Assembly (NCBI GenBank): GCA_965285935.1
Contig: OZ260666.1
Span: 11,036,001-11,100,000, forward strand
Source: Ophelia neglecta
Lineage: Eukaryota
Length of the DNA stretch: 64,000 nt
Reading direction: 5' to 3'
Position numbers: made by a program. Position 1 is the first letter of the stretch, and every line of letters begins with the position of its first letter. Below, in pieces: positions 24,001 to 27,000 of this stretch.

Positions 24001-27000
24001 TTTATAACTACCTTACCTAGATATTACCTTTTGAAAACGCCTGCATTGTCCCTGACGAGTAGTCCAATGGTGTTGAAACCAAACCTGGGAAATAAGTATG
24101 GATAATCACAAGCGCAAAACTGCTAATAAAATAATTTAAGATCCACCGCTAGTAAATAAGCAGCTATGACCGAACAACTGTGGTCGAATAACCATAATTA
24201 GCGACTACTCCTCTGCAGGCAGGGTTTATATCCGGTGGCATTCCAAGACATTAACAGTGGATGGTCAATGAACCAATATACGAAAACACTCATATACTAG
24301 ATATTTTGTGTTTTCACCAGAGTATCGTAAAAACAATTACAAATTATTTAACACACAGTTAAAAGGATTTTGCTTACCTGACCTCACTTTATTTGTCTAG
24401 TATATGCATGTATATGTATGTGCATGTATATGTAGGTTTAAAAGGCAAATAATTAAATCTACCAAGATCAACTGCTTCACTTGGCTCAGACTCATAATTT
24501 GAACCTTCCTCGCGTCCCCGACAGGAGTAGGTTGATAACGGACCTTCCTCCAAAGATAAGTCGATTGATGATTCAAAACTAGCATTTGTGATATCTGTTC
24601 CATCACGCTGCCAGATGTAGGTCATATTTGGACGATAGATTTCCGGCAGAGAAGTCAAGTTGACTACACAGGTCAAACCATAGTCTTGAACTATAATGGA
24701 GGCTGAAGTTGGCTGACCTGCATTGTAAACAAATAGAAATTATATTAACCCCTTGGTATCTTTTGTCGAGGTTGGAATGCTTAAAGAGACTTAGAAAAGT
24801 ACTTAGTTATTTTATCTGAAATGTGTTCATCTTAGATTTTTTCTTCCATTGATGAAAATAACAATACCTAGGGTTAACTGATACGACATTTTTTTACATT
24901 TTTGACACTTGATATCAGTTTATTATCCTTCAATTCTGATTAGTTCTGACTTGGTCAAACATTTTCACTATGCAATTACGCACGTGGTTGTGTGTATTAT
25001 ATAAGGTTTTAGCTTACCCCATACAAAGATGATGCCTGAATTATTATAGTTGTTCCCAAAGCAGGAATATGTTCCGGCGTCGTCAAGCGTGACATTCGTC
25101 AAAGTGATATCCGCCACAGAATAATTACTCCAGCCAATTGTGAACCGGTTCAATTTTAGGTATTTTTTTGCCGGAAATATTTCTGTCACCTTTACATTAA
25201 ATACAAGTGTTTGATTATTGTCAAAACAGGTAACATATCGTTTGTTGTCACCACCTGGTAAATACCAGGAAAATGTGGCGTTGTCACCCTCGTAAACCGC
25301 TGTGATTTGAGGACCTGAGAGAGAATATTAATAAACCCGAGTTATATCAAATTGGTTTTAGGTATGTTGATAACAGAACAACCATTTCTAGAGACAAAGT
25401 AAATTGTACTGAAGGCCAGGCATAAACTAAAGGTTACGACCATATTTCGAATGCATGTTATAAATACACGCAGTGCTTAGTATCAGGACTGAATTCTTAG
25501 TTAACTGTTATGGCTATACCAAATAGTTATATTTTCCTCCTACCTCGAGCCTTGCCCCCCTAGCCCTCACCTAGTGACACATTCACATTAATGTGCCTTT
25601 GTTTAATAATTATTTGATTTGAACTTATGTGAAACGTTTGATAGTACTGTTCCGTTTTCTTCTGCCAAATCTGTGTACAAGAGCAGAAAGGCATGGCTCA
25701 CACAAAAATCTATTAAAATTACTTCATAATTCAATGATGTGTTCATAGTTTAAGGTGGACACGAACTCCTCCCTGCCTATGCATTATGATTGCTCCAATA
25801 ACTTGTAATAACGGTAATTGTTTTTAATACATTCGTCTATAGAAACTATAGTACTACTTCATTTTTAGGGCGTCACAAGTTTGTTTATACTAGCCAAGCG
25901 GTTTCGGAACGTGTAGCTGCACATCCATAAGCAACATGTTTGGAAGAACGCAGCCCCCCCCCCCCCAAGAGCTCCGTGTTTTGTGTACTGTGTATTTCAT
26001 TCAACAAAACCAAGTACATTACTTACTGTCTGCAGCCAGTGCCAATAAACAGACAATTTGCAAAACACAAATGACATACAATGTAGAATTTGGCATCAGC
26101 AGATCCATTCCTCTGTAGAACCGCATCCTGGACCTACATAGAAAAAAAACAGTACTTAACTTAGCATACACACGCAAGCACATCCAAACCCACTACAGGG
26201 GTTGTATTAAATGCGAATGTTGGCGCGAAAGACCAAAATAGTACTTAAACTACTTGATTTAAAAATTGGAATTATCGGCTAGTTCGGCAATATTGGCGTG
26301 TATACATTTGGCAATTTGAGAATTTCAGCAGCAGGTCACAGGTGCAGGGGATGGATGGAATGAAACAACTTAAGTGGCAAAATAATGCCAATGTCGGGCG
26401 CTTTTGTGATTAGTAGAAGCTGTGTTGAGATGTTGGTAGTATATAAGCACCATCACTCTTACGCAGGGAGTGAGAGAGACTTTGCTCAACTATAAGACGG
26501 AATCCTAGTCCTTGTGTAGATGTGATGCTCCTGTATCGTAGTCTCAGAGCGCAGGATATCCACTTGCACGTTTTGCAATATCGTTGGTTTGAGCCCACAT
26601 CAAATCGACAATTATTTGCCTCTTCAGGCTTGGGTTGTGCTACATTAAAAATGCACCAACAATTTTCCCCGCATTATAAATATCCATCAGTAGATAGGCC
26701 TACGCACATTATAAGGCTATTCGTCTATCTATTTAAAGTAGATGTGATAGCCAGTGTGACAATTGGGGGGGGGGGGGAGGGGGAGGGGTGCATTAGCGTG
26801 GGTAAAATAATAAGTACGCCCTCTAACTACACTATATTAAAACACATCATACTTTTAGCTTCAACATATGGATCTCACACTGGCTTGTAGTATGGATAGT
26901 GACCCTTCTTAAATAGTAAATGACCTGGTTTAGTGTACAAGAAGTCACTAGCTAGCTAGCCTGTAGAGCTGCTTATACTCAGGCACATACTATATAATAA

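What the first reader, a model, noticed from the sequence alone, without database searches (positions are those of the whole stretch)
25018..25314. V-set domains with a Cys/Trp swap (predicted C-F strand disulfide)
Seen: genes A and C have Trp at the B-strand Cys position (ATFSW, ANLTW), Cys at the C-strand Trp position (YVTCF, QVNCY), and keep the F-strand DAGTYxC. Gene B keeps the B-strand Trp but has lost the F-strand Cys (DNGTYTL). Established: the canonical Ig core is B-Cys, C-Trp, F-Cys; a C-F disulfide is known in CD4 domain 2, and Trp-for-Cys in Alr domain 1. Inference: an inverted core defining a V-set subtype that standard profiles would score poorly.
Basis: partly seen in the sequence, partly recalled or inferred. 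Interest (0 to 1): 0.68.

Follow-up and report, generated by a model that had tools for sequence, protein, structure and literature searches.

The report
V-type Ig domain with rewired core
Two neighbouring genes of an invertebrate, probably a mollusc, encode cell-surface proteins whose outer immunoglobulin domain lacks the usual disulfide between its two sheets, has a buried tryptophan there instead, and keeps a conserved cysteine pair on two neighbouring strands.

Summary
Exon A (25018..25314, minus strand, 297 nt, phase 1-1) encodes a 99-residue domain with ATFSW, YVTCF and DAGTYSC. Exon C (63477..63773, also 297 nt) has ANLTW, QVNCY and DAGTYDC. Gene B has SASFVW and DNGTYTL.

A and C are 38% identical. 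With five short database ORFs they form a tight family: 111-136 bits, next best 37 bits. Both cysteines are invariant in 7 of 7; the B-strand Trp is present in 5 of 7.

An AlphaFold2 model built on the seven sequences (pLDDT 83.6) is a nine-strand V-set fold. Trp17 lies on strand B, Cys30 on C and Cys85 on F. Its best structural matches are CRTAM, Necl and Dpr V domains. Pfam V-set reaches its cut-off in 1 of 7 members.

The C-F disulfide itself is untested because no coordinates were returned. Its register rests on alignment, which is exact for the nearest relatives but ambiguous by two residues for most canonical domains.

Gene B is not a member of this family. The B-strand Trp is shared with abalone V-like domains that pair the F cysteine differently.

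Verdict: a new variant of a known kind, of moderate interest.

The parts
25018..25314 (-). Gene A V-like Ig exon: 297 nt, phase 1-1, 99 residues (P0002). Trp17 codon is 25265-25267, Cys30 codon 25226-25228, Cys85 codon 25061-25063.
   Evidence: Sequence and splice sites; motifs. Pfam: ig 28.5 bits, V-set 23.1 bits against a cut-off of 26. AF2 model; Foldseek.
26027..26126 (-). Candidate signal-peptide exon of gene A: Met followed by a hydrophobic run, with a phase-1 gtaagt donor. Inferred only.
   Evidence: Hydrophobicity and donor scan. No transcript evidence.
24463..24717 (-). Gene A second Ig exon (255 nt, phase 1-1) with the canonical B-Cys, C-Trp, F-Cys triad (LTC, YIW, YSC).
   Evidence: Pfam gives only Ig_2 at 14.8 bits (E 0.034). 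It is 46% identical to the gene C counterpart.
21840..21935 (-). Gene A transmembrane exon (96 nt, phase 1-1). Assignment to gene A is inferred.
   Evidence: Hydrophobic scan; sequence and splice sites.
21500..21652 (-). Gene A candidate cytoplasmic exon (153 nt, phase 1-1), acidic. Inferred.
   Evidence: ORF; sequence.
63477..63773 (-). Gene C V-like Ig exon: 297 nt, phase 1-1 (P0001 covers it). Trp codon is 63724-63726, C-strand Cys 63685-63687, F-strand Cys 63520-63522. Upstream exons lie beyond the window end.
   Evidence: Pfam V-set 26.8 bits. 38% identical to A.
63083..63334 (-). Gene C second Ig exon (252 nt) with the canonical Cys, Trp, Cys triad.
   Evidence: No Pfam match at E <= 10.
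62103..62201 (-). Gene C transmembrane exon (99 nt, phase 1-1). Inferred.
53102..53428 (-). Gene B V-like exon (327 nt, phase 1-1; P0003). Trp sits at the B-strand Cys position, Phe at the C-strand Trp position and Leu at the F-strand Cys position. It is a separate lineage from A and C.
   Evidence: Pfam V-set 22.2 bits over the full length. No BLASTP hit to A. Residue-level alignment to an antibody light-chain V domain, 7c80_L, E 0.033.
52500..52835 (-). Gene B second exon (336 nt), Cys-rich, with no family match.
52161..52372 (-). Gene B transmembrane exon.

Best explanation
Genes A and C are paralogous type I membrane glycoprotein genes of an invertebrate, probably a mollusc. The predicted layout is signal peptide, V-set Ig domain, a second canonical Ig domain, one transmembrane helix and a cytoplasmic tail. 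This is the two-Ig architecture of cell-surface adhesion or recognition receptors.

In the V domain the usual core 'pin' is rewired. The usual pin is a disulfide between the B-strand Cys and the F-strand Cys, capped by the C-strand Trp. Here the B-strand position holds Trp17, which fills the core from the ABED sheet. The C-strand position holds Cys30. Cys30 most likely bonds the retained F-strand Cys85 sideways within the GFCC'C'' sheet. That would be a cross-strand disulfide like the one in CD4 domain 2.

The two sheets would then be held together only by packing, while the C and F strands are stapled.

Shown: the motifs, the exon structure, the family conservation, the V-set fold and the strand assignment of the three residues. 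Inferred: the S-S bond itself, the exact register, the full gene models, extracellular location and function.
For: - Motifs and exon boundaries are confirmed.
- A and C are 38% identical without gaps.
- An exhaustive profile search of 1.84 billion representatives gave 228 hits at E <= 1e-3. Only 5 database proteins match over the whole domain.
- The family profile was then built from these same seven sequences (A, C and the 5), so their scores of 111-136 bits are partly self-scoring. The next best of the other proteins held from the searches scores 37 bits.
- In the 7-sequence alignment Cys30 and Cys85 are invariant. They are 2 of only 10 invariant columns out of 99. Trp17 is W in 5, F in 1 and G in 1.
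- The AF2 model built on that alignment has pLDDT 83.6 and pTM 0.74. Its strands are 3-7, 13-18 (holds Trp17), 27-31 (holds Cys30), 37-42, 45-48, 58-62, 67-72, 81-87 (holds Cys85) and 90-98.
- Foldseek's top PDB matches are V-set adhesion domains.
- C and F are neighbouring strands. The IgStrand paper states that the G, F, C and C' anchor residues form one stretch of backbone-backbone contacts. These anchors include the C-strand Trp and are set relative to the F-strand Cys (PMC12051499, passages).
- CD4 D2 is a solved precedent: B-Cys lost, Cys gained on C, bonded to the F-strand Cys (PMC4354306, passages).
- Partner-switch pattern: the 14 abalone-type relatives all keep the F-strand Cys and all have an extra Cys in strand G, with a variable residue at column 30. 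The 7 family members lack the G-strand Cys and all have Cys at column 30.
- The local motif (hydrophobic, x, Cys, aromatic) mirrors the canonical C-strand pattern (hydrophobic, x, Trp, Tyr/Phe). The canonical pattern is recalled, not taken from a call.
- Exon A has five N-x-S/T sequons, read from the translation. A signal-peptide candidate and transmembrane exons fit an extracellular, oxidising location.
Against: - No SG-SG distance was measured, because the tools return no coordinates.
- Register is uncertain. When 22 canonical domains (Cys at the B and F columns) are aligned to the family profile, their Trp falls at column 30 in only 6. It falls at -2 in 12, -3 in 2 and -1 in 1, and 1 has none. 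If the true Trp-equivalent were Val28, Cys30 would be diagonal to Cys85 rather than opposite it.
- In 3 of 14 abalone-type domains a Cys at column 30 comes with another Cys a few residues downstream. A Cys at this position therefore need not pair with the F-strand Cys.
- The partner-switch pattern is essentially one split between two clades, not many independent events.
- Three of 7 family members have a third, unconserved Cys in the domain.
- The family alignment is shallow, and five members are short ORFs from unnamed contigs of about 1-1.5 kb. They may come from one or a few closely related genomes.
- There is no transcript evidence for the gene models. The joined protein was not searched or folded.
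Confidence: 0.7

Rival explanations
1. The fold is a V-set domain without any intradomain disulfide. The two cysteines are conserved for another reason: free thiols, an intermolecular bond, or a bond to the next domain. Trp17 alone replaces the pin, as in Hydractinia Alr domain 1.
For: Disulfide-free V-set cores with an aromatic residue at the B-strand Cys position exist: Alr domain 1 (PMC9546547, passages) and gene B in this window. The register ambiguity leaves room for the cysteines being diagonal rather than opposite.
Against: Both cysteines are invariant in 7 of 7 members at 28-42% identity. They sit on adjacent strands of one sheet. The Ig2 exon already has its own canonical cysteine pair, so no spare partner is evident there. 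An unpaired buried Cys pair that stays invariant in an extracellular domain would be unusual (general knowledge).
Confidence: 0.15
2. The exons are decaying pseudogene pieces or chance Ig-like ORFs, and the unusual residues are simply degeneration of a canonical V-set.
For: There is no transcript evidence. The window is rich in retroelement ORFs. Orphan, partly frameshifted copies of gene B's transmembrane exon lie nearby. No annotated full-length homologue was found.
Against: Both exons are open, the same length (297 nt) and the same phase, with canonical splice sites. Each is followed in order by an open Ig2 exon and a transmembrane exon. The same two cysteines, the DAG-x-Y-x-C motif and the terminal F-x-W are kept in 7 of 7 diverged copies. 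AF2 folds the domain with confidence.
Confidence: 0.07
3. The alignment is off by one strand or register. The Trp is not at the B-strand Cys position, and the domain is an I-set or C2 domain misread as V-set.
For: Pfam matches to ig, Ig_3 and I-set are about as strong as those to V-set, and cover mainly the E-F part.
Against: The AF2 model has C' and C'' strands (37-42 and 45-48) and places Trp17 within strand 13-18. Foldseek's top matches are V-set N-terminal domains. In the local profile alignment, 22 of the 46 non-family domains that cover both columns 17 and 85 (53 of 532 domain hits cover both) put a Cys at both columns. The B-strand motif A-T-F-S-W mirrors the canonical V-T-L-x-C pattern, which is recalled rather than taken from a call.
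Confidence: 0.08

Closest known systems
CD4 domain 2 (cross-strand Cys130-Cys159 disulfide between strands C and F)
   Same: The B-strand Cys is lost, a Cys is present on strand C and the F-strand Cys is retained. The bond lies within one sheet instead of between sheets (PMC4354306, passages). This is the best mechanistic analogue.
   Different: CD4 D2 is a C2-type second domain of a vertebrate co-receptor, and its B-strand position is Leu, not Trp. Here the domain is an N-terminal V-set domain of an invertebrate protein. No sequence relationship to CD4 D2 was shown. The bond here is inferred, not observed. I did not verify that CD4 Cys130 sits exactly at the Trp-equivalent position.
Hydractinia Alr domain 1 (V-set without the Cys-Trp-Cys pin)
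   Same: It is a V-set fold that HMMER and Pfam detect poorly. The B-strand Cys is replaced by Trp, Phe or Tyr (PMC9546547, passages).
   Different: Alr domain 1 also lacks the F-strand Cys and has hydrophobic residues at the Trp position, so it has no disulfide there. Genes A and C keep the F-strand Cys and add a C-strand Cys. Gene B in this window (W, F, L at the three positions) resembles the Alr solution more closely. No Alr sequence was compared here, and the paper's SI alignment could not be seen.
Abalone V-like domains in predicted proteins named 'obscurin-like' and 'contactin-5-like' (Haliotis cracherodii) and an uncharacterised Haliotis asinina protein
   Same: These are the nearest detectable relatives. 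A profile of 14 such domains scores exon A at 33.3 bits and exon C at 28.1 bits. They have the B-strand Trp in 14 of 14 and the F-strand Cys in 14 of 14. Their membrane-proximal Ig domains carry a similar S-L-P...Y-R-P...Y-I-W motif to the Ig2 exons of A and C.
   Different: They carry an extra Cys in a C-G motif of strand G that A and C lack. The residue at column 30 varies (W 4, L 3, C 3, R 3, M 1). They occur in multi-domain proteins, some with CUB-like repeats. Only P0070, P0161, P0162 and P0163 have species names; the other five proteins are unnamed.
V-set N-terminal domains of CRTAM, Necl/SynCAM, Dpr/DIP, ZIG-8 and CAR
   Same: These are the best structural matches of the model (TM 0.65-0.77, Foldseek E 2e-7 to 5e-6). 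They are N-terminal domains of cell-surface adhesion or recognition proteins with a few Ig domains (this last point is recalled).
   Different: Sequence identity is only 14-20%. From general knowledge, not checked chain by chain, these have the canonical B-F disulfide and C-strand Trp.

Membership tests
Immunoglobulin V-set domain (Pfam PF07686; IMGT V-type) | Two-sheet sandwich with nine strands, including C' and C'' | tested here: met
   AF2 on the 7-sequence alignment gave pLDDT 83.6 with nine strands. Foldseek's top matches are V-set domains with TM 0.65-0.77.
Immunoglobulin V-set domain (Pfam PF07686; IMGT V-type) | Score at or above the Pfam V-set gathering cut-off (26 bits) | tested here: not met
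   Exon A scores 23.1 bits. Across the family the scores are 23.1, 26.8, 17.7, 19.4, 18.7, 24.8 and 13.4, so 1 of 7 pass. The generic 'ig' model PF00047 passes in 3 of 7.
Immunoglobulin V-set domain (Pfam PF07686; IMGT V-type) | Cys on strand B bonded to Cys on strand F (Cys23-Cys104) | tested here: not met
   The B-strand position is Trp in A and C. Across the family it is W 5, F 1, G 1 of 7. The F-strand Cys is present in 7 of 7.
Immunoglobulin V-set domain (Pfam PF07686; IMGT V-type) | Trp on strand C (Trp41) | tested here: not met
   The aligned position is Cys in 7 of 7. No Trp occurs in strand 27-31 of exon A.
Immunoglobulin V-set domain (Pfam PF07686; IMGT V-type) | D-x-G-x-Y-x-C motif on strand F (Asp98, tyrosine corner, Cys104) | tested here: met
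   DAGTYSC in A and DAGTYDC in C. D79, A80, G81 and C85 are invariant in 7 of 7. Tyr is present in 6 of 7, with Phe in one.
CD4-D2-type Ig domain with a cross-strand C-F disulfide | Cys on strand C and Cys on strand F, with no Cys on strand B | tested here: met
   In the AF2 model's strand assignment, Cys30 is in strand 27-31, Cys85 in 81-87 and Trp17 in 13-18.
CD4-D2-type Ig domain with a cross-strand C-F disulfide | The two cysteines are direct cross-strand neighbours and are bonded | not testable with these tools
   Structure prediction returns no coordinates, and none are placed in /data. The register from alignment is exact with the nearest relatives but ambiguous with canonical domains, 6 of 22 exact.
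CD4-D2-type Ig domain with a cross-strand C-F disulfide | Homology to CD4 D2 (C2-type domain) | tested here: not met
   No CD4 entry is among the 60 PDB sequence matches listed (of 174 at E <= 1) or (of 65 at E <= 1). Foldseek matches to CD4 entries have about 100 aligned columns with the V-type model. That they align to D1 is inferred, since no residue ranges are given. The topology here is V-set.
Hydractinia Alr domain-1-type V-set | Aromatic residue at the B-strand Cys position | tested here: met
   Trp in A, C and B. The definition is from PMC9546547 (passages).
Hydractinia Alr domain-1-type V-set | No F-strand Cys, and a hydrophobic residue instead of the C-strand Trp | tested here: not met
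   A and C keep the F-strand Cys and have Cys on strand C. Gene B does fit, with Phe and Leu by the alignment (E 0.033, weak).
Hydractinia Alr domain-1-type V-set | Sequence homology to Alr proteins | not tested
Abalone-type V-like domain (unnamed; B-strand Trp plus F and G cysteines) | B-strand Trp and F-strand Cys, with a significant profile match | tested here: met
   A profile of 14 domains scores A at 33.3 bits (E 3e-9) and C at 28.1 bits (E 1.2e-7) among the window ORFs. Gene B is not hit.
Abalone-type V-like domain (unnamed; B-strand Trp plus F and G cysteines) | Cys in the C-G motif of strand G | tested here: not met
   Present in 14 of 14 abalone-type domains and absent (a gap) in 7 of 7 family members.

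The most novel reading that the evidence does not exclude
A lineage-restricted family of molluscan surface receptors has traded the inter-sheet Ig disulfide for a strained, reducible cross-strand C-F disulfide backed by a B-strand Trp. This bond would work as a redox or mechanical switch that lets the V domain open, swap strands or change its binding face, as proposed for CD4 D2. Together with the abalone-type F-G variant and the disulfide-free gene B, it would show that the Ig 'pin' has been re-solved several times within one phylum.
Probability: 0.12. Interest if true: 0.7.

Novelty: new variant of a known kind. Interest (0 to 1): 0.45.

Why it matters
The Cys-Trp-Cys pin is treated as the hallmark of Ig domains, and profile models lean on it. 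A naturally conserved family would be a clean natural experiment on how the Ig core tolerates rewiring. In this family the pin is replaced by a B-strand Trp plus a probable C-F cross-strand bond.

Relatives nearby use an F-G pair or no disulfide at all. Invertebrate IgSF repertoires may therefore be under-counted by standard annotation. Here 6 of 7 members fall below the Pfam V-set cut-off, and the second Ig exon of gene C has no Pfam match at all.

If the bond is labile like that of CD4 D2, it could also be a regulatory feature. It does not bear on a major open question, so the interest is moderate.

Tried and rejected
- AF2 on exon A alone gave pLDDT 37.4 and was unusable. It cost one of the two structure jobs.
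- The word-indexed homologue search at near length found only 4 of the 5 relatives already known. All 4 have the source 'lgn' and sit on contigs of 1.0-1.5 kb.
- The same search at longer lengths returned only generic vertebrate multi-Ig proteins matched through the E-F motif, such as hemicentin-like, myosin light chain kinase and contactin. No annotated full-length homologue was found. This is weak evidence because of the word index.
Sources and names of P0007 and most second-tier proteins stay unknown.
- PDB sequence searches with the A+C profile and with exon C matched almost only the E-F motif of multi-Ig proteins. The one near-full-length match was CD7 (E 0.013 and 0.0014), and its alignment was not displayed.
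- Gene B as a third family member was rejected.
- The abalone-type domains did not give a clean covariation test of the bond. The three with Cys at column 30 also have another nearby Cys, so they neither support nor refute it.
- The first regular expression for abalone-type domains was too strict and found 2 domains. It was loosened and found 14.
- Rfam found nothing in the window.
- The ESM Atlas gave only V-set look-alikes. The commonest phylum of the first hit was Mollusca for A, with phylum known for only 3 members, and Cnidaria for B. These are leads only.
- Three literature searches for an Ig or V-set domain with a C-F or same-sheet disulfide, or with the pin residues exchanged, found only the CD4 D2 case and nothing on molluscs. 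One search, which searched for CD4 itself, found only that same paper.
- Not done: the joined (spliced) protein was neither searched nor folded, and all work was exon by exon. Supplements of PMC9546547, which hold the Alr alignments, could not be seen.
- The organism was not identified.
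Full report
**What is there**

The window is eukaryotic. It has short exons with ag/gt boundaries, reverse-transcriptase ORFs and about 37% G+C. It has three N runs, which were left alone. Nothing suggests human sequence.

The finding's coordinates, 25018..25314 on the minus strand, are exactly one exon of 297 nt. It is bounded by ag|GT and G|gtaagc and is in phase 1-1. It encodes 99 residues (P0002) with ATFSW (Trp17), YVTCF (Cys30) and DAGTYSC (Cys85); these are its only two cysteines.

Gene C has an exon of the same length and phase at 63477..63773, with ANLTW, QVNCY and DAGTYDC. 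Gene B has a 327-nt exon at 53102..53428 with SASFVW and DNGTYTL.

**Gene context**

Each V-like exon of A and C is followed on the same strand by a second Ig exon: A at 24463..24717 and C at 63083..63334. These two are 46% identical to each other. Each keeps the canonical B-Cys, C-Trp, F-Cys triad. A transmembrane exon follows: A at 21840..21935 and C at 62103..62201.

Gene A also has a candidate signal-peptide exon at 26027..26126 and a candidate acidic cytoplasmic exon at 21500..21652. Exon A carries five N-x-S/T sequons (read).

The inferred product is a type I membrane glycoprotein with a V-like and a canonical Ig domain. These gene models are inferred from open frames, phases and splice signals only.

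**Is it a family?**

A and C align without gaps at 38% identity (E 9e-25). A profile of A plus C was run against 1.84 billion representatives and gave 228 proteins at E <= 1e-3. Nearly all of them score through repeated matches to the E-F motif of multi-Ig proteins.

A family profile was then built from A, C and the five full-domain database matches, and all held proteins were re-scored with it. Seven sequences stand apart at 111-136 bits: A, C and the five short database ORFs P0007, P0046, P0073, P0116 and P0132. These seven are the profile's own input, so their scores are partly self-scoring. The next best domain among the other proteins scores 37 bits.

In their alignment 10 of 99 columns are invariant: G10, C30, T71, T76, D79, A80, G81, C85, F97 and W99. 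Trp17 is W in 5, F in 1 and G in 1.

The five relatives are 28-42% identical to A. Four have the source 'lgn' and sit on contigs of about 1-1.5 kb. Their origin is unknown and was not pursued. No other copy lies in the window.

No annotated full-length homologue appeared in the longer-length search. That is weak evidence, given how that search picks its candidates.

**Gene B is something else**

It has no BLASTP alignment to A. It scores 12 bits (E 0.016) against the family profile and is not hit by the abalone-type profile. Pfam V-set matches it over its full length at 22.2 bits.

A weak alignment to an antibody light-chain V domain (7c80_L, E 0.033) puts its Trp opposite the B-strand Cys, a Phe opposite the C-strand Trp and a Leu opposite the F-strand Cys. 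However, B is an independent, disulfide-free V-like domain, closer in style to Hydractinia Alr domain 1 than to A and C.

**Fold and strand assignment**

AF2 on exon A alone failed (pLDDT 37.4). On the 7-sequence alignment it gave pLDDT 83.6 and pTM 0.74; the five models ranged from 76.2 to 83.6.

The strands are 3-7, 13-18, 27-31, 37-42, 45-48, 58-62, 67-72, 81-87 and 90-98. This is a nine-strand V-set topology with Trp17 on B, Cys30 on C and Cys85 on F.

Foldseek against the PDB returned V-set N-terminal domains: CRTAM (TM 0.75), Necl-2/CRTAM, ZIG-8, Dpr/DIP, SynCAM, CAR, CD4 entries and antibody V domains, at 14-20% identity.

The first test, the distance between the cysteines, could not be run. 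The tool returns no coordinates and none are placed on the script machine.

**Does Cys30 sit where the Trp normally sits?**

Evidence for:
- A joint alignment was made with 14 abalone-type V-like domains from 9 proteins. Of these, 4 proteins are named, from Haliotis cracherodii or H. asinina, and 5 are unnamed. The stretch from the B-strand Trp to column 30 is ungapped, and 4 of 14 of these domains have Trp exactly at column 30. The rest have L 3, C 3, R 3 and M 1.
- The local pattern (hydrophobic, x, Cys, aromatic) mirrors the canonical pattern (hydrophobic, x, Trp, Tyr/Phe). The canonical pattern is recalled.
- In the local profile alignment, 6 of 22 canonical domains place their Trp at column 30.

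Evidence against:
- In the other 16 of those 22 domains the Trp falls at -2 (12), -3 (2) or -1 (1), or is absent (1). This is probably because their B-C loops are shorter and the profile aligns them without a gap, but that is my reading.

If the true equivalent were Val28, Cys30 would be diagonal to Cys85 rather than opposite it.

The geometric argument rests on print. The IgStrand paper says the G, F, C and C' anchors form one run of backbone-backbone contacts. These anchors include the C-strand Trp and are chosen relative to the F-strand Cys (PMC12051499, passages). CD4 D2 has a Cys130-Cys159 bond between strands C and F, with Leu where the B-strand Cys used to be (PMC4354306, passages).

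**The wider picture**

The abalone-type domains are the nearest detectable relatives. Their profile scores A at 33.3 bits and C at 28.1 bits, which is higher than Pfam V-set does. All 14 have the B-strand Trp and the F-strand Cys. All 14 also have a Cys in a C-G motif of strand G that the A/C family lacks.

The B-strand Trp is therefore a feature of a broader group. What is special to the A/C family is the invariant C-strand Cys together with the absence of the G-strand Cys. This looks like a change of partner for the F-strand Cys. It is essentially one split between two groups, so it is descriptive rather than statistical. In the three abalone-type domains with Cys at column 30, another Cys follows a few residues later. 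That Cys may pair locally instead.

The ESM Atlas lists V-set clusters, and the commonest phylum of the first hit is Mollusca, with phylum known for only 3 members. Together with the Haliotis relatives this makes a mollusc the likeliest source, but the organism was not identified.

**Do standard profiles score it poorly?**

Yes. Pfam V-set bits are 23.1 (A), 26.8 (C), 17.7, 19.4, 18.7, 24.8 and 13.4, against a cut-off of 26. That is 1 of 7 passing. Six of the seven matches cover only part of the domain, mainly the E-F stretch; only gene C matches over nearly the whole domain. The generic 'ig' model passes in 3 of 7. The canonical Ig2 exons fare no better: A gets Ig_2 at 14.8 bits and C gets nothing.

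**Mechanism**

I commit to this reading, at about 0.7. The V domain folds as a normal V-set sandwich. Trp17 fills the core from the B strand. Cys30 and Cys85 form a cross-strand disulfide inside the GFCC'C'' sheet.

The sheets are then not covalently pinned. According to the CD4 literature, cross-strand disulfides are more easily reduced than ordinary structural ones (PMC4354306, passages). A redox-sensitive or strand-swapping behaviour is therefore possible, but it is pure inference here.

The proteins most likely act as cell-surface adhesion or recognition receptors. That rests only on domain architecture and structural neighbours; no ligand or signalling motif was identified.

**Novelty**

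The four literature searches that bear on this found the CD4 D2 precedent, which is a C2-type vertebrate domain. They found no V-set family with this arrangement and nothing on molluscs. The library lacks most subscription journals and supplements were closed, so absence from print is not established.

I rate it a new variant of a known kind, with interest 0.45.

Noticed in passing
window 50610-50762 and 49217-49359 (minus strand): There are two extra copies of gene B's transmembrane exon. One is 73% identical over 51 residues. The other is 68-72% identical but split across two frames. No V-like exon was detected near either. They look like orphan or decaying duplicates downstream of gene B.
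   Followed up: partly
window 47638-48393 (minus strand): A 252-residue open frame encodes ankyrin repeats (Pfam Ank_2 83.5 bits). It lies between the gene B remnants and the retroelement-rich region. Its gene model and its relation to the Ig genes are unknown.
   Followed up: partly
window 566-1891 (+), 14557-15510 (+), 31094-33436 (-): Three reverse-transcriptase ORFs (Pfam RVT_1 at 76.8, 64.9 and 81.9 bits) are non-LTR retroelement-like insertions. The 781-residue one lies about 5 kb upstream of gene A's candidate first exon.
   Followed up: partly
window 23395-23656: A tandem array with a 34-nt unit (about 7 copies, 75% matches; also read as a 102-nt unit) lies between gene A's Ig2 exon and its transmembrane exon, presumably intronic.
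   Followed up: no
window 52500-52835 (minus strand): Gene B's second exon (112 codons) is Cys-rich and has no Pfam match at E <= 10. It stands where A and C have a canonical Ig domain, so it is an unclassified extracellular module.
   Followed up: no
proteins P0053, P0099, P0113, P0115, P0084, P0020, P0070, P0161-P0163 (database hits, not in the window): Abalone-type V-like domains carry a B-strand Trp, an F-strand Cys and a Cys in a C-G motif of strand G. This suggests an F-G disulfide in place of the B-F one. Some of these domains alternate with stretches that look CUB-like by eye; P0163 carries PF00431, which I take to be CUB. This domain type appears not to be named separately.
   Followed up: partly
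family members P0007, P0046, P0116 (and the gene A ORF at 24968..25327): After the terminal F-V-W-G, the ORFs continue with K or E. That is what read-through of a gta/gtg donor would give. It suggests the phase-1 intron right after the W-G is conserved across the family. The DNA of the database ORFs was not available to check.
   Followed up: no
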